A stretch of 64,000 nucleotides of DNA from the NCBI GenBank assembly GCA_018062765.1, contig JAGORR010000001.1, positions 217,249 to 281,248 of the forward strand. Reading direction: 5' to 3'. Positions within the stretch are counted from its first letter, which is position 1. The number at the start of each line of letters is the position of its first letter. This document shows, in pieces, positions 2,081 through 59,729 of the stretch. The notes below the pieces were generated by a model. That model was given only the letters and a program-made list of their open reading frames with translations, did not search any database and was not told the DNA's origin. A program made the translations under genes and the position numbers. Source of the stretch: Minisyncoccota bacterium. GTDB taxonomy: Bacteria > Patescibacteriota > Minisyncoccia > Phycocordibacterales > Phycocordibacteraceae.

Positions 2081-3907
2081 CTACTCGACCGTCACAGACT
2101 TTGCGAGGTTCCTGGGCTGGTCTATCGGGAGGTCACGAGCGTGCGCCACATGGTAGGCAAAAAGCTGCACAGGTATCGCCGTCAGGATGGGAAGAAACGC
2201 CTCATGCGTCTTCGGTACTGCGATGATATCGTCAGCAAGTTCTCTGAGATCCTCCTCCTTGCCCTCCGTGGTAATCGCAAGCACCTTACCGCCGCGCGCC
2301 TTTATTTCTTGAATGTTTGATTTCGATTTTTCATACAAAGAATCATCGGGCGCAAGCACAACCGAGAGGAAGGACGGCTCGATAAGCGCAATCGGTCCGT
2401 GTTTCATCTCGCCTGAGGCATACCCCTCCGCATGTATGTAGGAAATTTCCTTGAGCTTTATCGCGCCTTCAAGTGCGATAGGGAATTGGTACTTGCGCCC
2501 TAGGTAGAATGCGTTTTCCGCGTCCTTATATTTTTGCGAAAGCTTCCTGATTTCCTCGCTCTTCTTAAGGATAGAACGCGCAAGGTCTGGAAGTTTTGCG
2601 AGTTCCTCGATACGTTCTTGTCCTTCTCCGACCGACATTCCGCGTCCGCGCGCAAATAGTATGGAAATCATCGCGAATACCGCCATCTGCGAAATCATCG
2701 CTTTTGTCGAAGCGACGCTAATCTCCGGCCCCGCGTGGTTGTAGACGCCCGCATCCGTCTCACGTGCGATAGAAGATCCGACGACGTTGACGACGCCGAG
2801 CGTGGTAACACCATTGCGTTTTGCTTCGCGGATTGCCTCTATGGTGTCGAGCGTTTCTCCTGACTGCGAAACCGCGATAAGTATCGTGTCTGCCGGGTTC
2901 ATTGTGTTCTTGCGGTATCGCAACTCCGACCCAAGCTCAACCTCGGTGGGGATTCCCGCGAACTCCTCGAGCATAAGTTCGCCCACGCGCCCGGCGTAGG
3001 ACGCGCTTCCGCAGCCGGTAATGATGACGCGAGACTTCTCCTGAAGTGTGGGCAGGATGTCGATGAGTCCACCGAGTCGTACCGAGCCCTCCGCCATGAG
3101 GAGTCGACCACGAAGCGTGTTCTCAAGGGCCTCAGGTATCTCCATCATTTCTTTCAGCATGAAATGCTCGTACCCCTTCTTTTGGGCCGCCTCGAGGTCC
3201 CACTCTAGGGTCTCGACCGTGGCACTTCGTGATTCACCCGCCAAGGTGCGGATGTCGTAGCCGTTTTCAGTTAGTACGGCGATATCTCCATCGTCGAGGT
3301 ATACAACGTCTCGCGTATGTCGCAAGACAGGCGTCGCGTCAGACGCAATGTAATACTCACCATCTCCTATCCCGAGCATTACAGGGCTTGAAAATCGCGC
3401 GGCAACGAGTTTCCCTGGCTCACGCACGCTTGCCGCTACGAGTCCGTATGTGCCGCGCACGCGACTAAGTGCTTTAGCGACTGCGTCCTCAAGCAACACT
3501 CCCTCGCCATACTCCGCGTAGATAAGATTCGCGAGTACTTCGGTATCGGTGTCCGAGTGAAAAGCGACGCCGGAGGACGCAAGCTCAGCCTTTAGGTCTG
3601 CGTAATTCTCGATAATGCCATTGTGAACGATCGAGACCGTTCCCGAGGCGTCCGTATGAGGATGCGCGTTCTTCTCGACTGGCGGGCCGTGTGTGGCCCA
3701 GCGTGTATGAGCGATTCCGAGAGTACCTGAGAATCCTTCCGGCACCGCCTCACGCAAGGTTGCCACTTTTCCGGCGCGTCGTACTACACCTTTACCTTCG
3801 ACATAAATACCGGCGGAATCATACCCACGGTATTCGAGCGCCGAGAGCCCATCAAGAAGGAAGGGAGTTGCGTTCCGCGAACCTACGTATCCGACGATGC
3901 CACACAT
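2081..3907 (-). CDS. glmS: glutamine--fructose-6-phosphate aminotransferase
   Basis: N-terminal MCGIVGY Ntn-amidotransferase domain and two SIS domains; 608 aa. Confidence 0.95.
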   Translation of the reverse strand: MCGIVGYVGSRNATPFLLDGLSALEYRGYDSAGIYVEGKGVVRRAGKVATLREAVPEGFSGTLGIAHTRWATHGPPVEKNAHPHTDASGTVSIVHNGIIENYADLKAELASSGVAFHSDTDTEVLANLIYAEYGEGVLLEDAVAKALSRVRGTYGLVAASVREPGKLVAARFSSPVMLGIGDGEYYIASDATPVLRHTRDVVYLDDGDIAVLTENGYDIRTLAGESRSATVETLEWDLEAAQKKGYEHFMLKEMMEIPEALENTLRGRLLMAEGSVRLGGLIDILPTLQEKSRVIITGCGSASYAGRVGELMLEEFAGIPTEVELGSELRYRKNTMNPADTILIAVSQSGETLDTIEAIREAKRNGVTTLGVVNVVGSSIARETDAGVYNHAGPEISVASTKAMISQMAVFAMISILFARGRGMSVGEGQERIEELAKLPDLARSILKKSEEIRKLSQKYKDAENAFYLGRKYQFPIALEGAIKLKEISYIHAEGYASGEMKHGPIALIEPSFLSVVLAPDDSLYEKSKSNIQEIKARGGKVLAITTEGKEEDLRELADDIIAVPKTHEAFLPILTAIPVQLFAYHVAHARDLPIDQPRNLAKSVTVE

Positions 3908-4064
3908 AGTGAGTATGATAACCGTTTGGGCGAGGAAAAGTTGCGTGGTATAAAGGCGTGACCGGACGAGTTGCCGCTGTCAGTTTCTCCTCGCAGACTC
4001 AGAAAACTGCCATCGTGCTCGTTCGGCGCTCGAACTCGTGCCAGCACGGTTCGATGCCTCTCTC

Positions 4065-4318
4065 GCCGATGTAGCTCAGCTGGTAGAGCACGTCCATGGT
4101 GGGTCGCAAAGCCCTGCCCACGTTTTCAGTAATGAGAGCGTGAATCCCGAATTACGGTTAATAGCCCCACAGGCCAAGACCGTGGCGCATAGCGCCCGAA
4201 CGACTGACAAGGGTATCCGTTCCGGATAAAGATACAGTCTAGCCCTCTTTCGCGTGGCAGTTAGGAAAAGAGGTGTAAGCGAAGGACGGGGTCGCCGGTT
4301 CAAGCCCGGCCATCGGCT
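4065..4318 (+). tRNA. tRNA gene interrupted in the anticodon loop by an approximately 180-nt insertion (candidate group I intron); anticodon not confidently assignable (possibly Arg)
   Basis: 5' half GCCGATG-TA-GCTCAGCTGGTAGAGC-A-CGTCC-AT at 4065-4097. 3' half CGAA-GGACG-GGGTC-GCCGG-TTCAAGC-CCGGC-CATCGGC-T ending at 4318. Acceptor (GCCGATG/CATCGGC), D, anticodon (CGTCC/GGACG) and T stems are all perfectly paired. About 181 nt are inserted after U33/N34. Confidence 0.6.
4098..4279 (+). ncRNA. group I-like intron within the tRNA anticodon loop
   Basis: Contains GCCAAGACCGTGG (4171-4183), GAACGACTGACAAGGGTATCC (R-like, 4197-4217) and AAAGATACAGTCTAGCC (S-like, 4228-4245), with a P7-like GACUG/CAGUC pairing. 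These resemble the conserved cores of Tetrahymena, Anabaena tRNA-Leu and Azoarcus tRNA-Ile introns. Exact splice sites are uncertain. Confidence 0.45.
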
Positions 4319-4324
4319 CAGATA

Positions 4325-4526
4325 CACGAGAAACGCGCCCCTGCGGGGCGCGTTTCTCGTGTATCTGAGACCCTATTAAACTCCGTTAGAACCCATTTTG
4401 CAAAGGAGCCCTGATTACTCGCGCCTCGCGGACTCGGCGCTCGCCCCGACCCCTGTCCGCACTAAAATCCTTTTCTTTTTTCGCGGGGGGGGGGGAATCC
4501 AAAAATCCGGGCTCGGAGCGGCAGGG
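4325..4526. repeat. left copy of a ~200-bp near-identical inverted repeat (IR-L)
   Basis: Reverse complement of 9030-9227. Contains a 37-nt perfect palindrome cacgagaaacgcgcccctgcggggcgcgtttctcgtg at its outer end and a G11 homopolymer (G8 in the partner). Confidence 0.85.
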
Positions 4527-4580: not shown

Positions 4581-4847
4581 ATGCAACAAGCTCACAAGAA
4601 AAGTTTGCTCTCCCGGTTGCGCCGGATCGAAGGCCAAGTTCGGGGCCTTATCCGACTGGTTGAGAAGGATACCTACTGCATAGATGTTATTACCCAAACG
4701 TCGGCAATAAAAAGTGCTCTCTCAAGCGTCGAAGATCTCCTTCTAGAAAATCACTTGGAAACGTGCGCATCGAATCAGATCAAGTCGGGGAATATAAAAA
4801 AGGCGAAGCAGGAGATTCTTGCCGTGTATCGGCTTAAGCGCAAATAG
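4581..4847 (+). CDS. csoR: CsoR/RcnR-family copper-sensing transcriptional repressor
   Basis: 88 aa. RIEGQVRGL, the conserved Cys in YCIDV, and the H..E..C metal ligands (LENHLETC). Confidence 0.8.
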
Positions 4848-11094: not shown

Positions 11095-11976
11095 ATGACT
11101 GATGATGCGAGGGAGAAGCGTTTAGAGGAACTCGAGCTTTTGATGGGCACGCCCGATTTCTGGGCCAACAAGGACGAGGCGCAGGCGCGCGTTGCCGAAT
11201 ACCAGGCGCTTAAAGAAGGAGGGTCAGGTGACCCGACGGATGCGGGCGGAGCGACCATCACGATACTTGCCGGCGCCGGAGGGGACGATGCAGAAGATTT
11301 TGCGGCGATGCTTCTCCGGATGTACGAAGGCTACGCGACCAAGAAAGGTTGGAGGTGGCGAGTGCTCGATGATAACGAGAACGATCACGGCGGATACCGC
11401 AACGTTGTTGCGGAAGTCGCGGGGGCGGGGGCGTATGGGCGCGTGAAGCACGAGGCAGGAGTCCATCGTCTGGTACGTATCTCGCCTTTTAACGCGCAGG
11501 ATAAACGGCAGACCTCATTCGCGATGGTCGAGGTCCATCCAGCTCTCGGAAAGCATATGAAGGTGGAACTCAAGCCGGACGACCTGGAGATTACGTTCGC
11601 GAAGGCGGGTGGAGCCGGCGGCCAGAACGTCAACAAGCGCGAGACGGCGGTGCGCATCATTCATAAACCCACTGGGCTTTCCGTGCACGTATCGTCGGAG
11701 CGGAGCCAGCAAGCGAACCGAGAGAAAGGCATGGAGCTTCTTTCTGCAAAGATTCACATGCGAGAAGCGGAGGTGAGGGAGGCTGAGCGCGCAGGGCGTT
11801 CGATATCTGCGACAACCGCCAACGAATGGGGAAGCCAGATACGCTCCTATGTGCTCCATCCCTACAAGATGGTGAAGGATCATCGCACCGAGCATGAGTC
11901 ATCTAACCCCGACAAGGTGCTTGCAGGCGATATCGACGATTTTATAGACGCAGCAGCCGCGAAAACCGTTGCATAA
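11095..11976 (+). CDS. prfB: peptide chain release factor 2 (no programmed frameshift; short N-terminus)
   Basis: SPF tripeptide (RISPFNA), GGQ motif ([11 protein letters not shown]), WGSQIRSYV. No in-frame TGA or CUU-UGA-C frameshift site upstream. Confidence 0.85.
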
Positions 11977-20348: not shown

Positions 20349-20620
20349 GGCACCAAGTATAGATGCTCAGTAGGAAGTAGTAAAGTTAACTTTACGTGTA
20401 CGCTAGCGAGACTAGGAGTTTCTCTCACAAAATACTTTCGCCGTCGCAAAGACTAGGATTCTGTCACGGTTTGCGGCTAGATTCGTCCAAGCATTCCGAA
20501 TCTAGCTCGCAACCCCGACCCGGACTCGTCGCTTAACCCTGCCCCGCAGGCGCGACTCCGTCTTTCGAATCCTAGTCTCCCAGACAAGCGAAAGACCGCC
20601 TTTCGGCGGCTTTCGTCTTG

Positions 20621-20691
20621 CTGCGAGACTAGGATTCGAACCTAGATAAACGGATTCAGAGTCCGTTGTCCTACCATTAGACGATCTCGCA
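20621..20691 (-). tRNA. tRNA-Gln (anticodon CUG)
   Basis: Minus-strand sequence TGCGAGA-TC-GTCT-AATGGTA-GGAC-A-ACGGA-CTCTGAA-TCCGT-TTAT-CTAGG-TTCGAAT-CCTAG-TCTCGCA-G. U1-A72 pair is typical of bacterial tRNA-Gln. No encoded CCA. A terminator hairpin lies downstream (20590-20618). Confidence 0.85.
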
Positions 20692-26404: not shown

Positions 26405-27091
26405 GTGATTATTCAATCAATGGCCCTGGGTAATATAACGAGTCAAGTAATCTCAAAACAACGTGTTTCCGACCATGGTGAGGTACTAACGGCTGAGCGA
26501 GAGGTAAACGCCATGCTCGACATGGTGCGCCATGAGACCGAACGCATTGACTCCCGTTTCCTCGAGCCAGCTTGCGGCACAGGCAATTTCCTAGCTCCAG
26601 TGTACGAAAAAAAGCTTGCCGTCATTAAAAAGCGCTACGGTAAAAGCCAGCTAGAGTTTGAACGCTACGCCGTTACAGGCACAGGCTCCATCTATGGAGT
26701 GGACATTCTTGAGGACAACATAAAACTCTGCCGCAAGCGCCTGTTCGACATCTTTAACGAGCTCTACACGGCGCTCTACAAGAAAAGAAGCAAGGATGCT
26801 GTCCGCAGTGCAGTCCGCTTTGTTCTCAACAGAAACATTTTGTGGGGTGATGCACTTTCTCTTAAAACGGTGTCAAAACAGCCGATGCCCATCGTGTTCT
26901 CCGAGTGGTCTATGGTACGCGGTAGCATGATGAAAAGGCGCGACTTCTCGTTTGAGGAGCTTATGCCCGACAGCGCGGCAAAAGTGAGCCTGTTCAAGCA
27001 AGCAGAAATATCCGATCTTGGGACACCAGCGTTCATACCGACCCCTGTAAAAGAGTACCCACTTACTCATTTCCTTTCACTACACGTATGA
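26405..27091 (+). CDS. Eco57I/gamma-class N6-adenine DNA methyltransferase homolog lacking catalytic motif IV (SAM-binding pseudo-methyltransferase?)
   Basis: Motif X-like HGEVLTAEREV and a canonical motif I FLEPACGTGNFL. The expected (D/N)PP(Y/F) position reads NRNILWGD. 228 aa; may start at the internal ATG at 26420. Confidence 0.55.
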   Translation: MIIQSMALGNITSQVISKQRVSDHGEVLTAEREVNAMLDMVRHETERIDSRFLEPACGTGNFLAPVYEKKLAVIKKRYGKSQLEFERYAVTGTGSIYGVDILEDNIKLCRKRLFDIFNELYTALYKKRSKDAVRSAVRFVLNRNILWGDALSLKTVSKQPMPIVFSEWSMVRGSMMKRRDFSFEELMPDSAAKVSLFKQAEISDLGTPAFIPTPVKEYPLTHFLSLHV

Positions 27092-28578
27092 AAGTTCCGA
27101 CGAGCTACAACCCCGATGTTCTTACGTGTCTTGCCAACCTTAGCAACGACGAGGTGTTCACACCGCCAGCGTTGGTGAACCAAATACTCGACACCTTGCC
27201 GTCCGAAATTTGGCGAGACAAAACTGCCACTTTTCTTGATCCAGTCTCTAAGACAGGTGTTTTTCTGCGCGAAATAGTCCGCCGCCTCAATGATGGTCTG
27301 GTCAAAGAAATCCCCGACGCACAAGCACGGCTCGATCATATTTACACCAAGCAGGTGTTCGGCATCGCCATCACCGAGCTCACGGCACTGCTCTCGCGAC
27401 GCTCGCTTTACTGCTCGAAAGACGCAAGCGGCAAGTATTCAGTAAGTGAGGCGTTCAAAAGTGCTGACGGCAATGTACGCTTCGAGCGCACCGAGCATAG
27501 CTGGAAAGACGGTAAATGTGCCTTCTGTGGTGCAGGCCAGGCCGAGTATGATCGCGCCGAGGCGCTTGAGACCCATGCTTACCAGTTTATTCACACCGAC
27601 AACCCTAGTACACTGTTTAATAATATGAAGTTTGATGTAATTGTCGGCAATCCACCATATCAGTTGAGCGATGCTGGCGATAGCACGGGCGCATCGCCGA
27701 TATATCAACTCTTTGTTGAGCAAGCAAAGAAACTTCAACCACGCTTTTTGACAATGATTATTCCGTCGCGTTGGTTTGCAGGAGGGAAAGGGCTTGAGGG
27801 TTTTCGTGAAGATATGTTGAACGACGGACGAATCTCACATTTGGTGGACCATCCAATCGCGTCAGATGTTTTCCCCGGTATCAAATTGAATGGTGGTGCT
27901 TGCTATTTCCTATGGAATCGCGAATATCAGGGAGAATGCGAAGTAACCATAAAGATGAGCGGCATGGAGGATACAACAAAACGGCGACTCAATCAGTTCG
28001 ATACATTTGTTCGTTTCAACAAGGCAATCTCAATTTTGGATAAGGTGCAGTCGAAAAAGTATTCATCGTTGAGTGAGCTGGTATCACGACAAAAGCCGTT
28101 TGGACTCCGTACTTTTGAGCGTCCAACAGGAAAGGGTACTGTAAAGCTATACGCGAACAAAACCATTGGAAAGATTGAAAAGTCTGCAATAACCGTCGGG
28201 TTCGATATGTTGGATTCGTGGAAAGTATTTATTTCGATGGGCTATGGTGAAGGTGGCGAGGCGCGCGAATATCCGCGCATGATTTTGGGTAAACCCATCG
28301 TTGCTGCCCCGGGAATTGCATGTACAGAGACATATATTGTTGTTGGGAAATATAAGACAGAAAAAGAGGCAGAAAATCTTGCTAAATATTTACAAACGAA
28401 GTTCTTGCGATTCTTGGTCGCTCTTCGTAAAAACACGCAACACGTTACTAGAGATCGGTTTTTATTTGTGCCCGATTTGCCAATGAAAGAAGAATGGACA
28501 GACGAAAAGCTTAACAAGCTTTTCCGTCTGACAAAAGAGGAGATCGAATTCATTGACATGATCGTTCGTCCCATATAG
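27088..28578 (+). CDS. N6-adenine DNA methyltransferase, gamma class (Eco57I family)
   Basis: Motif X DEVFTPPALV, motif I region LDPVSKTGVFL (non-canonical), motif IV VIVGNPPYQ; 496 aa; start overlaps the upstream stop (ATGA). Confidence 0.8.
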   Translation: MKVPTSYNPDVLTCLANLSNDEVFTPPALVNQILDTLPSEIWRDKTATFLDPVSKTGVFLREIVRRLNDGLVKEIPDAQARLDHIYTKQVFGIAITELTALLSRRSLYCSKDASGKYSVSEAFKSADGNVRFERTEHSWKDGKCAFCGAGQAEYDRAEALETHAYQFIHTDNPSTLFNNMKFDVIVGNPPYQLSDAGDSTGASPIYQLFVEQAKKLQPRFLTMIIPSRWFAGGKGLEGFREDMLNDGRISHLVDHPIASDVFPGIKLNGGACYFLWNREYQGECEVTIKMSGMEDTTKRRLNQFDTFVRFNKAISILDKVQSKKYSSLSELVSRQKPFGLRTFERPTGKGTVKLYANKTIGKIEKSAITVGFDMLDSWKVFISMGYGEGGEAREYPRMILGKPIVAAPGIACTETYIVVGKYKTEKEAENLAKYLQTKFLRFLVALRKNTQHVTRDRFLFVPDLPMKEEWTDEKLNKLFRLTKEEIEFIDMIVRPI

Positions 28579-28580
28579 CT

Positions 28581-31094
28581 ATGGCCGATTTTTTTCCGCC
28601 ACGGCCGGAGGCAAAGCCTACTATCTACGCCTACAAGCTCAAAGGTGTGGAAACGCATGCTCATCTCCTCAAGGTGGGCTACACGACGCGCGATGCGCAA
28701 AGCCGCATTGCCGAACAGCTCACCACCGCGCGTTTGCAATACGAAATTGTTTTTGAAGAACCGGCTATGCGTGCCGATGGTTCGACATTTACAGATACCG
28801 ACGTGCATCGCCACTTGCGCGGAAAGCGCATCACGAATCCGGAAGGAGAGTGGTTTGAGTGTGGAGTGAAAGACGTGCGAGCAGCGTACGTTGCCATACG
28901 AGAGGGTGTGTTCAACGAAGAAAACCGCACACAAACATTCGGAATGCGCCCAGAGCAAGCCGATGCTGTGGTAAAAACCGCCGCGTATTTTACCGAGGCG
29001 CATGCTGACGGCAAGCAAACACCGCATTTTTTATGGAATGCCAAAATGCGCTTCGGGAAAACATTCACCACGTACCAGCTCGCCAAAAAGATGGGATGGA
29101 GGAGGGTGTTAGTGCTCACCTTTAAGCCCGCCGTGCACAATTCCTGGCACGAGGATTTGATGAACCATGTAGATTTTGAGGGATGGCAGTTTGTCTCGCG
29201 ACGGGGGAATACGCTCAATCATGCTGACATTGATGAAAAGAAACCATTTGTCGTATTTGGTTCGTTCCAGGATTTTCTCGGAAAAAACAGCGCAGGCGGG
29301 ATAAAAGCAAAGAATGAGTGGGTACACGAGACAACATGGGATGCTGTCGTCTTTGATGAATACCACTATGGTGCGTGGCGCGAGAGCGCGAAGGATTTGT
29401 TTGTCGGTGAGGAAAAAGACGTACGCAAGGACGAAGAGGGTGAGGCGTTGGAGTACTTTGACGAGCGCGCAGTGCCGATAAAGACCGGCGCGTATCTCTA
29501 CCTTTCGGGTACCCCATTTCGGGCTATTGCGAGCGGAGAATTTATCGAAGAGCAGATTTTCAACTGGACGTACAGTGACGAACAGCGGGCAAAAGAAGAG
29601 TGGGACAGTGCGAAGGGACCCAACCCATATGCGTCGTTGCCACGGATGGTGATGCTCACCTATCAGTTACCTGATGCTATACGTGAAGTGGCGATGGGTG
29701 GGGAGTTCAATCAGTTTGATTTGAGCCAGTTTTTTGCTGCAGAAGGAAAGGGCAAGAGCGCGAAATTTTTGTATAAAGACGAAGTGCAAAAGTGGCTGGA
29801 TTTGATTCGCGGTGCGTTTGCTGAAACTACCGTAGACAATTTGAAGCTGGGAGCGAAGAAGCCTGCGTTGCCGTTTTCTGACACGCGGCTTTTGAATGTG
29901 CTATCGCACACGTTTTGGTTTTTGCCGAGTGTAGCGGCCTGTCATGCTATGGCGAATTTGCTCAAGCAACGACAGAACAAGTTTTTTAACGAGTACGAGG
30001 TGATTGTGGCAGCGGGTACGGCGGCGGGAATTGGCGTGGCGGCGCTTGAGCCTGTGCTGAGGAAGATGGGCGAGCCCTTGAAGACGCGCACAATTACGCT
30101 TTCGTGCGGCAAACTGACGACGGGTGTATCCGTGAAGCCATGGACAGGTATTTTTATGCTGCGCAATGTAGCGAGCCCCGAGACATATTTTCAGGCGGCT
30201 TTTCGCGTGCAGACACCGTGGACTGTGCCGAATCCGGAGGGCAACGCGCCAAATCGTGAAGAAATCATCAAGCAGGAATGCTATGTTTTCGATTTTGCTC
30301 CGGATCGCGCTTTGCGACAGATTGCCGAGTATAGTTCTAGACTCAATTTGGATGATTCGGTCAGTCCCGAGAAAAAGGTGGAGGAGTTTATTCACTTCTT
30401 GCCGGTCTTGGCCTATGACGGAAGCGCGATGAATCAGATAGACGCGGCGGGAATTTTGGATATGGCGATGAGCGGGACCACTGCCACGTTGCTTGCGCGG
30501 CGTTGGGAGAGTGCGCTTTTGGTGAATGTCGACAACTATACTCTGGCGCGCTTGATGAACAGTGATGAAGCGATGCAGGCATTGATGAGTATTGAAGGCT
30601 TTCGTGCTCTGAATCAAGATATTGAGACTATCATCAACAAGTCCGGTGTGGTGGAGAAACTGAAAAAAGAAGCGAACGATCGGACGTTGACGAAGAAAGA
30701 AACAGAGTCATTGAGCGACGCCGAAAAAGAATTGAAGGGCAAGCGTAAGCAGGTGCAGGAAAAGCTCATCAAATTTGCAACTCGCATTCCGGTGTTTATG
30801 TATCTCACCGACTACCGCGAGCATACTTTGAAGGACGTAATCAATGAGCTTGAGCCGGACTTGTTTAAACGCGTTACCGGTCTTACTAAAAAGGACTTCG
30901 AGCTCTTGGTGAGCTTAGGTGTATTCAACGATTCGTTGATGAACGACGCGGTTTACAAATTCCGTCGATATGAGGATGCGAGTTTGGCGTACACCGGCAT
31001 AAACAGGCACGAAGGGGAGAATGTTGGTCTTTTTAGCACAGTCCTTTCTGTAAAAGAATACGACCAAACATTCATAAATACTCCAGAAGAGTAG
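28581..31094 (+). CDS. GIY-YIG (T5orf172-like) nuclease domain fused to an SF2 (SNF2/ResIII-like) helicase
   Basis: N-terminus TIYAYKLKGVETHAHLLKVGYTTRD...EGEWFE. Helicase motifs: Q-like TFGMRPEQADAV, I NAKMRFGKTFT, II VVFDEYHYG, III LSGTPF, V LTTGVSV, VI QAAFRVQTP. 837 aa. Confidence 0.6.
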   Translation: MADFFPPRPEAKPTIYAYKLKGVETHAHLLKVGYTTRDAQSRIAEQLTTARLQYEIVFEEPAMRADGSTFTDTDVHRHLRGKRITNPEGEWFECGVKDVRAAYVAIREGVFNEENRTQTFGMRPEQADAVVKTAAYFTEAHADGKQTPHFLWNAKMRFGKTFTTYQLAKKMGWRRVLVLTFKPAVHNSWHEDLMNHVDFEGWQFVSRRGNTLNHADIDEKKPFVVFGSFQDFLGKNSAGGIKAKNEWVHETTWDAVVFDEYHYGAWRESAKDLFVGEEKDVRKDEEGEALEYFDERAVPIKTGAYLYLSGTPFRAIASGEFIEEQIFNWTYSDEQRAKEEWDSAKGPNPYASLPRMVMLTYQLPDAIREVAMGGEFNQFDLSQFFAAEGKGKSAKFLYKDEVQKWLDLIRGAFAETTVDNLKLGAKKPALPFSDTRLLNVLSHTFWFLPSVAACHAMANLLKQRQNKFFNEYEVIVAAGTAAGIGVAALEPVLRKMGEPLKTRTITLSCGKLTTGVSVKPWTGIFMLRNVASPETYFQAAFRVQTPWTVPNPEGNAPNREEIIKQECYVFDFAPDRALRQIAEYSSRLNLDDSVSPEKKVEEFIHFLPVLAYDGSAMNQIDAAGILDMAMSGTTATLLARRWESALLVNVDNYTLARLMNSDEAMQALMSIEGFRALNQDIETIINKSGVVEKLKKEANDRTLTKKETESLSDAEKELKGKRKQVQEKLIKFATRIPVFMYLTDYREHTLKDVINELEPDLFKRVTGLTKKDFELLVSLGVFNDSLMNDAVYKFRRYEDASLAYTGINRHEGENVGLFSTVLSVKEYDQTFINTPEE

Positions 31095-38949: not shown

Positions 38950-41900
38950 ATGACTCATATTACTTTCGCTTCGCGATCGGCTATCGCCCGATTCGCAAGC
39001 GCGCTCACGGTGTTCGCGCTCGTCGCGACACCGTTCATGACTCTTATTCCTGCATCGGCGCATGCGACCGCGCCGACACCAGCAAGCATTTCGATTGATA
39101 CTGTCGAAGATGATAATGGCTCATATACTTCGCCTTTTGATTTCTCATGCCCTGTAGATGGTAATGAAGGAGAAATAACCATCTACGGTAGCGGAGCGAG
39201 CGCAAGCAACTCCCCGGGGCAGATTGAAGACTATGCCGTTGCAATAGATTGGGGAGATGGGAGCGCAACAACCACAGATCTTGGCACGTTCACTCCTCCT
39301 TCAGGGACGTCTACGTTCACGTACGAATTCACAGCTTCCCATTCGTATTCCTCCTACGGACCAAAAACTGTCACTGCATACCTTTACCATGGAAGCCTAA
39401 ATGGAAACGATGGTGATGCTGTGGCGACAATCACTTTATCTCCTTGCAGCACCGATCCGGGTGTGACCACCGACGCTGCAGACAACATCAGCCACACGGA
39501 CGCTACTATGCACGGTACCAACGGGCCTGTAGCAGCGACAAACTCCTCGTACTGGGTCTCCCTTGCGCCGATTGATACCGGCTCGTCCTCCATTCCGCCA
39601 GGCGTCTACTCAACCCCGACTCAGGGAGCGGTAGCTGCTAATGGCGCCCTTGCCGGGACGCCCCTTTCTTCTGTCGCGACTTCCGGCATCCCAGGAAACA
39701 TCCCAGGCGGTATACAACCAGATACCACGTACTACTTCGTTGCGTGGATCGAAGTCGGCGGAGACTGGTATCCGGGCGAAGTCCTCTCTGTCACGACCCT
39801 CCCTGATCCTGAAGTACCGCCGGCCTGCGGAATCATGGATAACACCACGTTCGACGGATTCTCTCTCGGCAGCGTAAACGGCCAGGGCGGATGGGGTATA
39901 ACCGGTCCCTACGACCACGCTATCGTCGATAACACCTACGGCTTCCCAACTTTCGGTTGTAAGACGCTTCGTATCTCGAACGCCGTAACCGCTGGTTCGT
40001 TCGGTGACCAAATCTTCTCCTACTCAGTCGCCAACGAGGCAGGTGAGACTGTTGCTGAGAATAACGGCATGTCAGGGGGTACTCGCCAGGAGCGCTTCGA
40101 GGCAGAGTTCGATATCGCCTCCGCTGATGCAGACGTTTACCAGCCGGGCCTCGCTGTCACTGTCTCTCCCGACCGGGGTGATGGCGCTCGCATGAGCTAT
40201 CTTCGCTTCGAGGATTCCCCGGACGGTATCGATGTCTATTTCTACGACGTGCAGAGCTCGACTGATCCTGCGAACTTCGTCCAGACCCAGATCGCAAATG
40301 ATCTTCCGCGCACCTCGCCGCACACGGTGAAGCTCGTCATGGATTTCGTTGACGGCCCGGTAAGTCCGGCAGCGCTCCCTGCGAACGATGTCGTCGAAGT
40401 CTTCATCGACGGCGTCTCCGAGCATATCGGGACAAGCTGGGAAAACTATTACCGCTACGATAATGAGTCGAACCCTGGCCTTATCGACACGAGCCGCACC
40501 GTCGACTCGCTCCTCTTCCGTGTCGCTGGCACGGCTGCTCCGGAAACGGATGAGGAGGGCTTCCTCTTCGACAATGTCTCCATAGAGACCGGCCCTACAC
40601 CAGGCCCTGTCGTAGAGACCTCGACCGTGACCCTCTGTAAGTACGCAGACACGTACCCCGAGGAGACTCCACTCCCAGGATGGACGCTCACTCTTACCGG
40701 CGACACCGTACAGGAAAGTTTCGCCGTCCCTGTTGCAGACCCTGTAGGTGTTAACTCAAATCCTCTCGTAGCCGGAGTTTCCTACGTGGCAACGGCGATG
40801 GGTACTTGGCTCAATGACCGGCCAGATGATGCGCCTGAAGGAAACGATGTCGACGCTGAGTACTCGACGATCGACGAGTGGGTAACCCAGATGGACGGCT
40901 ACGACGGATTCGGTACCAATATCCTTGAGCTCGAGATCAATGAGACCGATGGCGAGTGGGGTACATACAACAGCAGCCATACGTACGCACAGGCCTTCAC
41001 CGTTGCTGCTGACGGCCCTGCGAACTTCCGGATCTTCGATGGCGACGGTGCGCATGTTCAGCAGCCAAGCTGGTTTGCCGACAACAAAGACAGCACGCTC
41101 GAAGTAGAGATCTCCGAAGGATATGCCGGCGTAACTGGAGAGAACGGCTGCGTAACGTTCGAAGATGTGCCATTCGGTAGCTACGAAGTAGGCGAGGTCA
41201 TGCAGGACGGCTGGGAGAACGAATCCGGACTTGGCGAGGTAACGGTGGATGAGGAGGAAATGGTCTTCGATGTCGTCAATCATAACGACGACTTCGGCAA
41301 TGATTCCTGCATGCTCGTAAGCGACACAACGACCCTCGAGGGTGGTACTGCTTCCGACCTCGTGCCGGAGCCGCATCATGAATCATGGACCGCCGTAGTA
41401 GACATGCTCGCGATGTGGATCTGGGGAGATGAGGAAGTCACTGATCCGACTGGTGAGGAGACTCAGGTCTTCACGAAGACGTTCTGGCTTGAGTCCGTAC
41501 CAGCGTCTGACGCGACCCTGGTCATCGGAGCCGATAACTCGTACGAAGTCGAACTCAATGGCACTCCAGTGGGTAACGATGCCAACGAGGACAACTACAC
41601 TAACGCTGAAAAGGACACGATTACGATTCCTATGGCGGACTTCGAGCTCGGTGCGAACACGCTCGTCTTCACGGTGAAGAACATCGCGTTTGGCGGCGGC
41701 ACGCAGGAGACGAATCCGGCCGGACTCATCTACAAGCTCACTATCCCAGGAACGGAGTGTCAGCAGACGCCTCCTGACCAGGCGGAGCTACAGGTCCACA
41801 TCTACAAGTACATCCAGGATGAGAACGATGCTATAGCGCTCGCAACCGAGGGAAGCTTCCCAATGAGCGCGACCTGGGACGCTGCCAACATCGGCGCGGG

Positions 41901-43257
41901 CTCCGGCAACTACGCGCTTAACGCGGGGAACAGCTATCACGCTGCAACGAGCCCGATGTCACAGCAGGCCGACTACAGCACCTACGAAGTCACGGATGGA
42001 AATCCTGTCATGCCTGCGGACAGTAATAGCTGTCCGGCGGATAAGTACCGACTCGTAGGCTACAAGACCGGAGATACGCTCATCGAAGCTGAGAACGACG
42101 CAATAGACGACGACTTCCCGGTCTTCGATAGTCTCGACGCTGATAAGTATGTAATCGTAGTCAACGAAGATTGTGATGACCTTGATATCCCACCTACCGA
42201 GCAGGTGAAGGTTCACATCTACAAGTACCTCGAGGATGAAAACGATGTAGCGACGCAGATTCCTGACAATGCGGAGATAGCGCCGTTTGCGATGACGGCG
42301 ACATGGACCGCAGATAACCTAAATAGCGGGACCGAGTCTTCCGGTGAGTATGTCCTCGGTAACAATCACGGCGGAACATCGCTTACGTACGCTGCGGATA
42401 CATCACCGATGGATGTCGGCGCTGATTACACGACTTCGGAGATTACCGGCGAGAACGGTGTCCTTCCGGTTGGTGGTGAGTGCGTTGAGGGTGCGTATCG
42501 CCTCGTGGGCTACAAGTCGGGCACGACCCTTGAAGAGGCAGAAGGCGGCGTCGTAACAGCAGCCGCACCAATCTTCACCGACCTCCAAACTGACCAGCAC
42601 GTTATCGTCGTCAACGAGGACTGCGATGACGTATTCGACGACAGTACTCCATCCGAAGAGCAGTTCACTATCACCTCGACGGTTGAAGGAGATGGAACGG
42701 TGACCCCGTTAGGCGCAATCGTCGTTAATGAGGGTGACAATCAGATGTTCACTTTTACTGACGGTGGCCAGTCGCTCGTCGAAGTTCTGATAGACGGCGT
42801 CGATATCGGAAGTCCTGCTGATTACACCTTCTCCAGTGTTAACGCGAACCATACGGTGCACGCACGATTCGCAACGAATGGAGGTGGCGGTGGTGGAGGA
42901 GGCGGAAACAATAACGGTGGTCAGGTTCTCGGTGCATCCACCGACGACATGTGCATCCCGCTCCTCCATACGTATATGCGCATGGGTATAGTGAACGACG
43001 CACAAGAGGTTATGGACCTTAAGGGCTTCCTTAACGAGGAAATGGGACTGACGCTTCCGATTGACTCGAACTTCGACGCAGCGACGGATGCTGCGGTGCG
43101 TGCATTCCAGACGAAGTACAAGACCGAAGTGCTTGATCCGTGGACACCGTTTGGCTTCAATGATCAGCCGACCGGCTACGTGTTCAAGCTGACCCAGTGG
43201 AAGGTAAACTCAATCCACTGTGCTCCAACGATTTATCCGTTCCCAGCGCTCCCATAA
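38950..43257 (+). CDS. giant (1435 aa) secreted cell-surface protein with tandem ~130-aa domain repeats, poly-Gly linker and C-terminal peptidoglycan-binding domain
   Basis: Signal peptide. Internal duplicated module (VHIYKY[IL][QE]DENDA...YRLVGYK[TS]G.TL.EAE...HVIVVNEDCDD, twice). GGGGGGGGGNNNGG linker. C-terminal PG_binding_1-like domain (AVRAFQTKY). Confidence 0.8.
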   Translation: MTHITFASRSAIARFASALTVFALVATPFMTLIPASAHATAPTPASISIDTVEDDNGSYTSPFDFSCPVDGNEGEITIYGSGASASNSPGQIEDYAVAIDWGDGSATTTDLGTFTPPSGTSTFTYEFTASHSYSSYGPKTVTAYLYHGSLNGNDGDAVATITLSPCSTDPGVTTDAADNISHTDATMHGTNGPVAATNSSYWVSLAPIDTGSSSIPPGVYSTPTQGAVAANGALAGTPLSSVATSGIPGNIPGGIQPDTTYYFVAWIEVGGDWYPGEVLSVTTLPDPEVPPACGIMDNTTFDGFSLGSVNGQGGWGITGPYDHAIVDNTYGFPTFGCKTLRISNAVTAGSFGDQIFSYSVANEAGETVAENNGMSGGTRQERFEAEFDIASADADVYQPGLAVTVSPDRGDGARMSYLRFEDSPDGIDVYFYDVQSSTDPANFVQTQIANDLPRTSPHTVKLVMDFVDGPVSPAALPANDVVEVFIDGVSEHIGTSWENYYRYDNESNPGLIDTSRTVDSLLFRVAGTAAPETDEEGFLFDNVSIETGPTPGPVVETSTVTLCKYADTYPEETPLPGWTLTLTGDTVQESFAVPVADPVGVNSNPLVAGVSYVATAMGTWLNDRPDDAPEGNDVDAEYSTIDEWVTQMDGYDGFGTNILELEINETDGEWGTYNSSHTYAQAFTVAADGPANFRIFDGDGAHVQQPSWFADNKDSTLEVEISEGYAGVTGENGCVTFEDVPFGSYEVGEVMQDGWENESGLGEVTVDEEEMVFDVVNHNDDFGNDSCMLVSDTTTLEGGTASDLVPEPHHESWTAVVDMLAMWIWGDEEVTDPTGEETQVFTKTFWLESVPASDATLVIGADNSYEVELNGTPVGNDANEDNYTNAEKDTITIPMADFELGANTLVFTVKNIAFGGGTQETNPAGLIYKLTIPGTECQQTPPDQAELQVHIYKYIQDENDAIALATEGSFPMSATWDAANIGAGSGNYALNAGNSYHAATSPMSQQADYSTYEVTDGNPVMPADSNSCPADKYRLVGYKTGDTLIEAENDAIDDDFPVFDSLDADKYVIVVNEDCDDLDIPPTEQVKVHIYKYLEDENDVATQIPDNAEIAPFAMTATWTADNLNSGTESSGEYVLGNNHGGTSLTYAADTSPMDVGADYTTSEITGENGVLPVGGECVEGAYRLVGYKSGTTLEEAEGGVVTAAAPIFTDLQTDQHVIVVNEDCDDVFDDSTPSEEQFTITSTVEGDGTVTPLGAIVVNEGDNQMFTFTDGGQSLVEVLIDGVDIGSPADYTFSSVNANHTVHARFATNGGGGGGGGGNNNGGQVLGASTDDMCIPLLHTYMRMGIVNDAQEVMDLKGFLNEEMGLTLPIDSNFDAATDAAVRAFQTKYKTEVLDPWTPFGFNDQPTGYVFKLTQWKVNSIHCAPTIYPFPALP

Positions 43258-58745: not shown

Positions 58746-59729
58746 ATGGACGATTCACGTGAAAATCGCGAGCTGCAGCGTTACGGGTCCCTCCGCTCCG
58801 CTCCGCCGTATAGCCTATACGTCTACGCGAAGCTTAGTCCCGCGCCTGGCATCTCATCGATTTTCACGCGAATCGTAGTGGCTGCGATGTGCGCGCTACC
58901 CCTTCTGTCGATACCAGCATTGGTGGAAGCTGCGGAGATACATTTCAATCCTCAGGACAGCTCGATTGGTACCGAGGGGGAATTCCTGGTCGGAGTTAAT
59001 CTCACGTCCGAAGAGCGGGTTAACGCCATTTCACTCGTGCTTCCTATTCCGACAGGGCTCCGGCTCATGGGCGTGTCTGACGGCAACTCCATTGTCACTC
59101 TTTTCGTAGAGTCGCCTGCGTTTGATGAGGACGAGCGAAGCCTCTCGTTCTCAGGAGTCATTCCTAATGGATTTTCTGGAGAGGAGGGGCGGCTCGTGAC
59201 ACTCACGTTTGCGCCTGAGAAGCGCGTAGGGTCCGCCACGTTCGTCCTCGACCCGGGAAGCGAGGCGTACGCCAAGGAGGGTGAGCCAGTCGCTTTGTAC
59301 GGACGTGCGCTCACCCTTCCGTTTGCCGCAGGGAAGCGCAACCTGCAGGACTTTCCGCCAGACCGCGATCCTCCGGAGGAGTTCGATCCCGTTCTCATAC
59401 CTGATCCGTCGCCGCAAGGAAGCGGTCTCCTTATCGCATTCTCTACAGTAGACAAAGCCTCCGGCATCGAACGCTACGAGGTGAAGGAAAGTGTTTGGGG
59501 AAATTGGTTCCCGTCATACGGATGGCAAGAGACAACGAGTCCACATCGCTTAACGGATGCAACGCGCACGAGTTGGGTGTATGTGCGCGCGACTGATGAG
59601 GCGGGTAACAGTTATGTTGCGATGATTCCGCCGGAGCGCTCACCGTTTGTTGTATACATCCCAATCTTGCTTGGAATCATCGTGCTACTCTTTATCGTAT
59701 ATGCACGTTACGCGCGTAGGTCGCGCTAG
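58746..59729 (+). CDS. membrane-anchored cohesin-like domain protein
   Basis: GEFLVGVNLTSEERVNAISLVLPIP.GLRLMGV ... GRLVTLTFAPEKRVGSATFVLD cohesin-like beta-sandwich pattern. C-terminal TM. Confidence 0.5.
   Translation: MDDSRENRELQRYGSLRSAPPYSLYVYAKLSPAPGISSIFTRIVVAAMCALPLLSIPALVEAAEIHFNPQDSSIGTEGEFLVGVNLTSEERVNAISLVLPIPTGLRLMGVSDGNSIVTLFVESPAFDEDERSLSFSGVIPNGFSGEEGRLVTLTFAPEKRVGSATFVLDPGSEAYAKEGEPVALYGRALTLPFAAGKRNLQDFPPDRDPPEEFDPVLIPDPSPQGSGLLIAFSTVDKASGIERYEVKESVWGNWFPSYGWQETTSPHRLTDATRTSWVYVRATDEAGNSYVAMIPPERSPFVVYIPILLGIIVLLFIVYARYARRSR

What the first reader, a model, noticed from the sequence alone, without database searches (positions are those of the whole stretch)
4065..4318. tRNA gene split by an approximately 180-nt group-I-like intron in the anticodon loop
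A canonical cloverleaf is recoverable only if about 181 nt between the 5' half (ending ..CGTCC-AU) and the 3' half (CGAA-GGACG..) are removed. Acceptor (GCCGATG/CATCGGC), D, anticodon and T stems are all perfect. The insertion carries group-I core-like elements: GCCAAGACCGU, GAACGACUGACAAGGGUAUCC and AAAGAUACAGUCUAGCC, with a P7-like GACUG/CAGUC pairing. These resemble the cyanobacterial tRNA-Leu and Azoarcus tRNA-Ile introns. tRNA group I introns are phylogenetically sporadic, so one here is notable. The upstream exon would end in G or U33, so the splice junction and anticodon identity (Arg-like?) are unresolved.
Basis: partly seen in the sequence, partly recalled or inferred. Interest (0 to 1): 0.62.

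Follow-up and report, generated by a model that had tools for sequence, protein, structure and literature searches.

The report
Self-splicing intron inside a threonine tRNA gene
A threonine tRNA gene in an uncultured ultra-small (Patescibacteria-type) bacterium is interrupted by a compact 181-base group I intron of a divergent kind that standard tools miss; the kind is already published, so this is a real but ordinary new example.

Summary
A tRNA gene at 4065-4318 (+) is split by exactly 181 nt (4101-4281).

Rfam Intron_gpI (RF00028) gives no hit even at E<=10. About 108-111 of them are the same tRNA-Thr(GGU) 36/37 arrangement.

A 48-sequence alignment supports a complete group I fold: P1 with a U.G at the splice site, P2-P9, the P3/P7 pseudoknot, and P9.0 before the terminal G. 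90% of cells pair, against 33-41% when the partners are slid, and 39 of 56 pairs show compensatory changes.

A covariance model of this family also matches Rfam-certified group I introns, with coinciding boundaries.

The class is already in the literature: Thr.5Ug (Williams 2020) and the "divergent group I introns" of Patescibacteria tRNA-Thr (mSystems 2026), including the RF00028 miss and ARAGORN's Arg(GCG) miscall. Splicing itself is inferred, not shown. Verdict: a new member of a known kind, of low to moderate interest.

The parts
4065..4100 (+). tRNA-Thr(GGU) 5' exon: acceptor, D arm, 5' anticodon stem, A32 U33 G34 G35 U36. U36 (4100) is the -1 nucleotide.
   Evidence: Sequence; ARAGORN on the spliced sequence; TGGT invariant in 48/48 homologues.
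4101..4281 (+). 181-nt group I intron (divergent tRNA-Thr 36/37 class), from G+1 to omegaG at 4281.
   Evidence: The family model R1 scores 191 bits on 4091-4291, the only hit in the window.
4282..4318 (+). tRNA-Thr 3' exon: A37 A38, 3' anticodon stem, variable loop, T arm, acceptor, discriminator U. No CCA is encoded.
   Evidence: A37 A38 present in 108/108 family members.
4098..4118 (+). P1: exon G34 G35 U36 plus intron GGG (4098-4103) pairs with the internal guide CCCUGCC (4113-4118). U4100.G4116 is the splice-site wobble.
   Evidence: U.G in 47/48. The +1 pair covaries (AU 22, GU 20, GC 3, UA 2). Also predicted by RNAalifold.
4119..4142 (+). P2 hairpin (10 bp) capped by a GNAA tetraloop (GUAA, 4129-4132).
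   Evidence: 9 of 10 pairs show compensatory changes. Loop positions G, A, A are at least 90% conserved. Loop position N covaries with a P8 base pair.
4146..4148 (+). P3 5' strand (CCC); it pairs with 4211-4213 (GGG) to form the pseudoknot with P7.
   Evidence: 100% paired; pair 4146-4213 is CG in 45 and UA in 3.
4154..4183 (+). P4 (4154-4159 / 4178-4183) enclosing J4/5, P5 (4164-4166 / 4172-4174) and J5/4.
   Evidence: P4 is invariant, so it is uninformative. All 3 P5 pairs covary. A G.U to A.C exchange occurs at the base of P5.
4184..4196 (+). P6 hairpin (GGCGC AUA GCGCC).
   Evidence: 4 of 5 pairs show compensatory changes, e.g. GG..CC to CC..GG or AG..CU.
4197..4206 (+). J6/7 (CGA) and the P7 5' strand A(C)GACUG with bulged C4201. 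This is the 'R'-like element and the inferred guanosine-binding helix.
   Evidence: Invariant in 48/48. It pairs with 4235-4240. Part of it was fixed by the search pattern.
4211..4213 (+). P3 3' strand (GGG).
4214..4228 (+). P8 hairpin (UAUCCG UUC CGGAUA).
   Evidence: Holds the highest mutual-information pairs in the alignment (4214-4228, 4215-4227, 4216-4226, 4217-4225; 95-98% paired).
4229..4240 (+). J8/7 (AAGAUA) and the P7 3' strand (CAGUCU); the 'S'-like element.
   Evidence: Invariant. It matches the generic group I core motif, which is also found in Rfam-certified introns.
4242..4280 (+). P9.0 (4242-4243 GC with 4279-4280 GC) enclosing the P9 hairpin (4244-4250 / 4267-4273).
   Evidence: P9.0 pair types: GC 28 / AU 16 and CG 24 / UA 18. 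The 2-bp helix forms in 102/108. All 7 P9 pairs covary.
4281..4281 (+). omegaG, the last intron nucleotide.
   Evidence: Invariant G. The U(-1)/omegaG rule gives anticodon GGT in 111 of 115 candidate loci.
4317..4369 (+). Perfect long hairpin abutting the tRNA 3' end; a probable transcript end or processing signal. It is not part of the intron.
   Evidence: It produces spurious mir-9457 matches on both strands.

Best explanation
The locus is the gene for tRNA-Thr(GGU), interrupted between anticodon nucleotide U36 and A37 by a compact 181-nt group I intron without an ORF.

Inferred mechanism (the standard group I pathway):
- The precursor folds so that exon G34-G35-U36 pairs with the intron's internal guide GCC (4116-4118). 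This forms P1, with a U.G wobble marking the 5' splice site.
- An exogenous guanosine bound in P7 (G4202-C4239 region, next to bulged C4201) attacks after U4100.
- The 2-bp P9.0 then helps place the terminal G4281 in the same site.
- The freed 3'-OH of U36 attacks after G4281. The exons are ligated into a 73-nt tRNA and the intron is released.

Shown here: the split gene, the conserved group I fold with covariation, family membership, and homology to certified group I introns.
Inferred: catalysis and self-splicing, the L2-P8 tertiary contact, and that this is the cell's only tRNA-Thr(GGU) gene.
For: - Split tRNA, with Thr(GGU) after removal of 4101-4281.
- At least 120 genomes carry the core motif. 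114 of the 120 loci are split tRNAs, and the U(-1)/omegaG rule gives GGT in 111 of 115.
- The closest relatives are 82% identical over the whole intron (L158, Paceibacterota; L205).
- Structure test on 48 sequences: 90.1% of cells paired, against 33-41% when slid; 39/56 pairs with double changes; 0/500 shuffles reach the observed values.
- Unsupervised RNAalifold and mutual-information analyses recover the same helices.
- U.G at the splice site in 47/48, and P9.0 covaries.
- Family model R1 hits full-length viral introns at the same coordinates as RF00028 hits above gathering. Examples: L058 3410-3634 vs 3410-3609; L063 3361-3573 vs 3362-3551; L038 2897-3131 vs 2916-3128.
- One family member (L241) reaches RF00028 at 24.4 bits, E=0.043.
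- The literature describes exactly this class and its behaviour with the tools.
Against: - There is no RF00028 hit in the window even at E<=10 on 501 nt, and only 1 of 19 relatives gives a weak hit.
- P4 and P7 never vary, so they carry no covariation evidence. Part of R, S and P3' was fixed by my search pattern.
- P3 is only 3 bp.
- The viral loci used as the bridge to RF00028 were pre-selected by a short R..S motif.
- No splicing experiment exists for the Thr class. PMC13011429 tested only Asn and Asp introns.
Confidence: 0.9

Rival explanations
1. It is a group I-derived intron that no longer self-splices efficiently and depends on a protein cofactor or special conditions in vivo.
For: The core is minimal (3-bp P3, no peripheral domains beyond P2 and P9). 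The sequence is too divergent for RF00028. No published splicing assay exists for this class.
Against: All catalytic-core elements are invariant across 48 or more species-level genomes, and the helices keep pairing through compensatory changes. The signatures of tertiary contacts are retained: the GNAA L2 loop covarying with P8, and P9.0.
Confidence: 0.07
2. It is a disrupted tRNA pseudogene carrying an unrelated insertion (a mobile-element remnant), with no splicing.
For: Default tRNA finders see no gene here.
Against: Both exons are perfect. The same insertion at the same phosphodiester bond is conserved in more than 100 genomes, with structure-preserving covariation in both the intron and the anticodon stem. 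In complete Patescibacteria genomes that carry this intron, intron-blind tools count one Thr tRNA fewer.
Confidence: 0.02
3. It is a protein-spliced (bulge-helix-bulge, archaeal/eukaryal type) tRNA intron or another ribozyme class.
For: The intron lies in the anticodon loop, and ARAGORN's generic intron mode finds it.
Against: The position is 36/37, not the canonical 37/38. The flanking genes and closest relatives are bacterial. The fold is group I, with the U.G / omegaG / P7 / J8-7 signatures.
Confidence: 0.01

Closest known systems
[quoted passage not shown] 2018)
   Same: Same host tRNA and anticodon, and the same insertion bond. RF00028 fails in the same way, and ARAGORN makes the same Arg(GCG) 34/35 miscall (against Table 1). 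There is direct sequence homology to Patescibacteria members, including L167 (CP011209.1, a complete Wolfebacteria genome). Length is similar and there is no homing endonuclease gene.
   Different: Nothing essential. This copy (181 nt) is at the short end of the family range of 158-266 nt. This particular MAG (GCA_017991435.1) is not among the published cases I could read.
Azoarcus tRNA-Ile(CAU) and Agrobacterium-type tRNA-Arg(CCU) IC3 introns (Reinhold-Hurek & Shub 1992, as cited in PMC13011429)
   Same: A bacterial tRNA anticodon-loop group I intron inserted at 36/37. It is small (about 200 nt), has a short P1 with 3 exon base pairs, a GNRA-capped P2, P9.0 and P9, and no ORF.
   Different: The core sequences differ. 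Examples: GAACGACUGA against GUAGAGACUA in P7, and AAAGAUACAGUC against AAGGNAUAGUCC in J8/7-P7', judged against the Williams seed alignment. P3 is 3 bp here, not about 6. RF00028 detects the IC3 introns but not this one. PMC13011429 places the Thr introns with subgroup IA, not IC3.
Cyanobacterial / plastid tRNA-Leu(UAA) intron
   Same: A self-splicing group I intron in a tRNA anticodon loop.
   Different: It is inserted at 34/35, belongs to subgroup IC3, is detected by RF00028, and has different hosts.
Patescibacteria tRNA-Asn / tRNA-Asp 35/36 group I introns (PMC13011429)
   Same: Same phylum, IA-affiliated, missed or misassigned by annotation tools. Splicing has been shown in vitro for that class.
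   Different: Different tRNA and a different insertion bond. Those introns are detected by RF00028, and some carry homing endonuclease genes.

Membership tests
Group I intron | 5' splice site follows a U that forms a U.G wobble in P1 with an internal guide sequence | tested here: met
   U4100.G4116. U.G in 47/48 homologues. The neighbouring +1 pair covaries (AU 22, GU 20, GC 3, UA 2).
Group I intron | The intron ends in G (omegaG), positioned by P9.0 | tested here: met
   G4281 is invariant. The two P9.0 pairs covary, GC 28 / AU 16 and CG 24 / UA 18. P9.0 forms in 102/108.
Group I intron | Core topology P3-P4-P5-P6-P7-P3'-P8-P7' with a P3/P7 pseudoknot | tested here: met
   All helices are found in the right order. 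P2, P5, P6, P8 and P9 are supported by compensatory changes, and P3 by one covarying pair. P4 and P7 are invariant, so they are uninformative.
Group I intron | P7 guanosine-binding helix with a bulged nucleotide, and a conserved J8/7 (R and S elements) | tested here: met
   A(C)GACUG / CAGUCU with bulged C4201, and J8/7 AAGAUA. The same motif occurs in Rfam-certified group I introns. Actual G binding was not testable.
Group I intron | Scores at or above the Rfam RF00028 gathering threshold (50 bits) | tested here: not met
   No hit at gathering or at E<=10. Among 19 relatives only L241 reaches 24.4 bits. This is a known blind spot of RF00028 for this class.
Group I intron | Detectable homology to certified group I introns | tested here: met
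   Family model R1 matches viral introns full-length (up to 38.6 bits, E about 1e-11) at coordinates that coincide with RF00028 hits of 52-56 bits. Caveat: those loci were pre-selected by a 19-nt R..S motif.
Group I intron | Guanosine-dependent self-splicing with exon ligation | not testable with these tools
   Needs an in vitro transcription and splicing assay, or tRNA-seq.
Patescibacteria tRNA-Thr(GGU) 36/37 divergent group I introns (Thr.5Ug) | The host gene is tRNA-Thr(GGU) and the intron lies between nucleotides 36 and 37 | tested here: met
   The window tRNA has G1-C72, C2-G71, U33, GGU and A37. The spliced tRNA is 89-93% identical to those of family members.
Patescibacteria tRNA-Thr(GGU) 36/37 divergent group I introns (Thr.5Ug) | Sequence homology to introns of this class in Patescibacteria genomes | tested here: met
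   82% identity over 181 nt to L158 (Paceibacterota). BLAST E-values from 1e-46 to 1e-13 against dozens of Patescibacteria loci. R1 scores 191 bits.
Patescibacteria tRNA-Thr(GGU) 36/37 divergent group I introns (Thr.5Ug) | The host organism belongs to Patescibacteria | tested here: inconclusive
   The window is GCA_017991435.1, and no taxonomy label was available. Synteny and 70% GlmS identity to a 'Patescibacteria group bacterium' locus (L205), plus 78% release-factor identity to a Paceibacterota locus (L222), make it very likely.
Subgroup IC3 tRNA introns (Azoarcus / cyanobacterial type) | IC3 core sequence signature and detection by standard group I models | tested here: inconclusive
   The core differs from the IC3 seeds in the Williams alignment and RF00028 fails. 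Subgroup-specific models were not available. PMC13011429 places the Thr introns in the IA clade.
Archaeal/eukaryal BHB (protein-spliced) tRNA intron | Canonical 37/38 position with a bulge-helix-bulge motif at the junctions | tested here: not met
   The junction that satisfies conservation is 36/37. The fold is group I and the context is bacterial.

The most novel reading that the evidence does not exclude
This intron family may be a distinct, minimal branch of group I ribozymes. Its members are 158-181 nt at the short end, shorter than the roughly 205-nt Azoarcus intron, which (from my own knowledge) is usually cited as the smallest. P3 is only 3 bp and the core is nearly invariant. It also occurs outside Patescibacteria, in a Niastella populi isolate and in MAGs labelled Gammaproteobacteria, Bdellovibrionales and Pedobacter. 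That distribution could reflect transfer between episymbiotic Patescibacteria and their hosts.
Probability: 0.25. Interest if true: 0.5.

Novelty: new member of a known kind. Interest (0 to 1): 0.25.

Why it matters
The main value is practical. Standard annotation (default ARAGORN, the Rfam tRNA model, RF00028) neither finds this tRNA gene nor recognises the intron. As a result the genome appears to lack tRNA-Thr(GGU), or the gene is miscalled as tRNA-Arg(GCG). The case confirms that the published 'divergent' tRNA-Thr intron class is common and highly conserved in Patescibacteria. The analysis also yields a covariation-supported secondary structure and a family covariance model that could be reused for annotation. 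The short members could be of interest as minimal group I ribozymes. None of this changes the current understanding of tRNA introns.

Tried and rejected
- Rfam at gathering and at E<=10 on the locus gave no group I hit, only spurious miRNA-like matches to the downstream hairpin.
- BLAST of the locus against phage records matched only the 36-nt 5' exon, to Listeria phage tRNAs.
- ARAGORN's own junction (34/35, Arg GCG) was rejected. It violates the U(-1) rule, and 111 of 115 homologues give GGT under the U(-1)/omegaG rule.
- An initial P1 model with a bulged U was rejected in favour of a continuous helix, because the +1 nucleotide covaries with that U.
- A longer P3 (extra pairs at 4145/4214) was rejected. 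There is no covariation, and 4214 pairs with 4228 in P8 instead.
- I tried to read Castelle et al. 2018, but it is not held. Table S5 of PMC13011429 is truncated in the stored copy, so I could not compare with the published Thr intron sequences directly.
- I checked whether the viral group I hits are also tRNA introns. They are not.
- I checked the release-factor gene at 11095-11976 for an RF2-type frameshift site (CTTTGAC) and found none there.

Full report
**Observation.** Reading 3900-4500 shows a tRNA 5' half at 4065-4100 and a 3' half at 4282-4318. Acceptor (GCCGATG/CATCGGC), D (GCTC/GAGC), anticodon (CGTCC/GGACG) and T (GCCGG/CCGGC) stems are all perfect, and 181 nt lie between the halves. 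ARAGORN in default mode and the Rfam tRNA model both miss this gene; they find only tRNA-Gln at 20620-20691. With introns allowed, ARAGORN finds the split gene.

**Splice junction and tRNA identity.** Because GGT at the 5' border and GCG at the 3' border overlap, four 181-nt excisions are possible. ARAGORN chooses 34/35, which gives Arg(GCG). Only one choice satisfies the group I rule of a 5' exon ending in U and an intron ending in G. That choice is 4100|4101 and 4281|4282, which gives A32 U33 G34 G35 U36 A37 A38, that is tRNA-Thr(GGU). ARAGORN calls the hand-spliced sequence tRNA-Thr(GGU). The tRNA has G1-C72 and C2-G71, which I know as E. coli Thr identity elements. It has U20 where tRNA-Arg has the A20 identity element (both from my own knowledge). 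Among homologous loci the same rule gives GGT in 111 of 115 cases.

**Rfam.** RF00028 (Intron_gpI) gives nothing at the gathering threshold over the whole window. It also gives nothing at E<=10 on 3950-4450. Everything that follows shows this is a sensitivity gap of the model, not absence of a group I intron.

**Literature.**
- Williams (bioRxiv 10.1101/2020.01.27.920355) expanded bacterial tRNA group I intron settings from 4 to 21. A Thr.5Ug class (Thr, after anticodon position 3, U-1/omegaG) is among them. The paper notes that none of the RF00028 seeds were bacterial.
- The mSystems 2026 paper (PMC13011429) lists three Patescibacteria tRNA-Thr(GGU) genes with introns at 36/37. [quoted passage not shown]
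- That paper calls them 'divergent group I introns' (citing Castelle et al. 2018) and places them with subgroup IA.
- This is exactly the behaviour I see for the window.
- In those genomes, intron-blind tools count two Thr tRNAs. This suggests the interrupted gene is the only GGU copy.

- Almost all hits are Patescibacteria MAGs (Paceibacteria, Saccharibacteria, and others). Exceptions are a Niastella populi isolate and a few MAGs labelled Gammaproteobacteria, Bdellovibrionales or Pedobacter.
- ARAGORN finds a split tRNA at 114 of the 120 loci.
- 108 yield clean tRNA-Thr(GGT) 36/37 introns of 158-266 nt, median 192.
- The window intron is 82% identical over its full length to L158 (Paceibacterota) and to L205. 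It matches dozens of others at E from 1e-46 to 1e-13, including L167 from the complete Wolfebacteria genome CP011209.1.

**Host.** The window is contig JAGOQO010000002.1 of GCA_017991435.1. Its flanks encode GlmS, a CsoR-like repressor, a copper P-type ATPase and similar genes. L205 ('Patescibacteria group bacterium') shares the arrangement of glmS next to the split tRNA, with 70% GlmS identity and 62% identity for the AOX-like neighbour. The release-factor gene at 11095-11976 is 78% identical to one next to the intron in a Paceibacterota MAG. The host is therefore very probably a Patescibacteria (Paceibacteria-like) bacterium. I could not obtain a formal classification.

**Structure.** I aligned 48 diverse members (median identity of the larger 97-sequence set is 66%) as alignment A1. 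I then tested a hand-drawn group I fold on it.
- 90.1% of cells form standard pairs, against 33-41% when the 3' partners are slid by 1-3 columns.
- 39 of 56 pairs have changes on both sides, and 0 of 500 shuffles reach any observed measure.
- P1: G34-C, G35-C, U36.G (47/48), then the +1 pair covarying (AU 22, GU 20, GC 3, UA 2).
- P2: 9 of 10 pairs compensatory, capped by a GNAA loop.
- P3: CCC/GGG, 100% paired, one pair CG 45 / UA 3.
- P4 and P7 are invariant.
- P5, P6, P9: nearly every pair is compensatory.
- P9.0: two pairs immediately before omegaG, GC 28 / AU 16 and CG 24 / UA 18.
- P8 was blurred by MAFFT gaps in that count. It holds the strongest mutual-information pairs in the 97-sequence alignment (95-98% paired).
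- RNAalifold, run without my structure, independently predicts the anticodon stem, P1 with the U.G, P2, a 6-bp P4, P5, P6, P7, P8 and P9.
- The single-sequence MFE fold shows the same hairpins (z = -2.7).
- The mutual-information analysis also shows that the variable second position of the L2 GNAA loop covaries with P8 pair 4216-4226 (A with G-C, U with U-A, C with C-G). This is what a tetraloop-helix contact would produce. Shared ancestry could also contribute.

**Link to certified group I introns.**
- The core strings A(C)GACUG ... AAGAUACAGUCU are the classical R/S (P7, J8/7) elements. A looser version of the motif hits at least 120 viral contigs.
- A covariance model of the family (R1) finds a single copy in the window (4091-4291, 191 bits).
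- R1 also matches viral sequences full-length. The boundaries coincide with RF00028 hits above the gathering score: L053 38.6 bits vs RF00028 54.9; L038 28.2 vs 56.1; L058 28.2 vs 51.9; L063 26.7 vs 51.8.
- These loci were pre-selected by the short motif. The full-length alignments and matching 5' ends go beyond that motif.
- One family member, L241, reaches 24.4 bits (E=0.043) with RF00028 itself.

**Mechanism.** Taken together, the intron most likely self-splices by the standard two-step guanosine-initiated pathway.
- P1 (4098-4103 / 4113-4118) presents U4100.
- P7 (4200-4206 / 4235-4240) binds first the exogenous G and then G4281, with P9.0 (4242-4243 / 4279-4280) helping to place the latter.
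- Exon ligation restores the anticodon loop AUGGUAA.
- The fold and family membership are shown. Catalysis is inferred from the conserved group I core and from demonstrated splicing of other Patescibacteria tRNA introns (Asn and Asp, PMC13011429).
- The 181 nt leave no room for a homing endonuclease, so the element is probably inherited vertically rather than actively mobile.

**Rivals.** A decayed pseudogene is excluded by conservation of both exons and the intron across more than 100 genomes. A protein-spliced BHB intron is excluded by the 36/37 position, the bacterial context and the fold. A group I-derived intron that needs a protein cofactor cannot be excluded without an assay; I give it about 7%.

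**Novelty and score.** This is a new member of an already described class, in the phylum where the class is known. The points that go somewhat beyond the papers I could read are:
- the size of the family (at least 120 species-level genomes, capped);
- the covariation-backed structure, including P9.0 and a candidate L2-P8 contact;
- very short members (158 nt in L154, which lacks P9);
- occurrences outside Patescibacteria.

Interest 0.25.

Noticed in passing
window 4317-4369: A perfect long inverted repeat (CTCAGATACACGAGAAACGCGCCCC TGC GGGGCGCGTTTCTCGTGTATCTGAG) starts inside the last acceptor base and discriminator of the tRNA. It has no T-run after it. It produces spurious mir-9457 Rfam matches on both strands (43 and 40 bits). 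It is probably a terminator or processing hairpin.
   Followed up: partly
window 4485-4495: A homopolymer run of 11 G in the intergenic region upstream of the CsoR-like repressor gene (4581-4847) and the copper ATPase gene. It could be a slippage-prone tract or an assembly artefact.
   Followed up: no
window 27088-31094: A low-GC segment (0.46-0.48, against about 0.56 elsewhere, with strong GC skew) encodes an Eco57I-type restriction-modification methylase and an 837-aa T5orf172/ResIII helicase-like protein. It is probably a horizontally acquired defence island.
   Followed up: partly
L154:5925-6082 (MAG labelled Gammaproteobacteria, CAZCNP010000001.1): The shortest family member, a 158-nt intron that lacks the P9 hairpin entirely (CUAGCC AAA AGCG) but keeps P9.0 and omegaG. 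It is a candidate minimal natural group I ribozyme.
   Followed up: partly
L169 (Niastella populi NZ_LWBP01000002.1, 5234-5414 minus strand); also L129, L154, L159, L161, L173, L184, L206: The same tRNA-Thr(GGU) 36/37 intron occurs in a cultured Bacteroidota isolate and in MAGs labelled Gammaproteobacteria, Bdellovibrionales and Pedobacter. The family is therefore not confined to Patescibacteria, unless the labels or binning are wrong. Horizontal transfer is possible.
   Followed up: no
alignment of 97 family members; window 4130 with 4216-4226: The variable second base of the L2 GNAA tetraloop covaries with a P8 base pair (A with G-C, U with U-A, C with C-G). This suggests an L2-P8 tertiary contact. 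At the base of P5 there is a G.U to A.C exchange (window 4163/4175 is A/C).
   Followed up: partly
L034 (IMGVR_UViG_3300035190_001568), L016, L054, L051, L053: Some viral contigs carry several Rfam-certified group I introns packed within a few kb, for example five RF00028 hits in 3.6 kb of L034. None of the 13 R1 hits in viral loci that I tested with ARAGORN (including ones in L053) lies in a tRNA gene; L034, L016, L054 and L051 were not among those tested.
   Followed up: partly
window 11095-11976: The release-factor ORF (PCRF + RF-1 domains) is only 293 aa from its first ATG and lacks about 90 N-terminal profile positions. No RF2-type CTTTGAC frameshift site lies upstream.
   Followed up: partly
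window 38950-43257 and 59647-61521: A very large ORF (1435 aa) with only a weak peptidoglycan-binding match, and a 624-aa protein with cohesin and Ig-like domains. These are probably cell-surface proteins, as is common in episymbiotic Patescibacteria.
   Followed up: no
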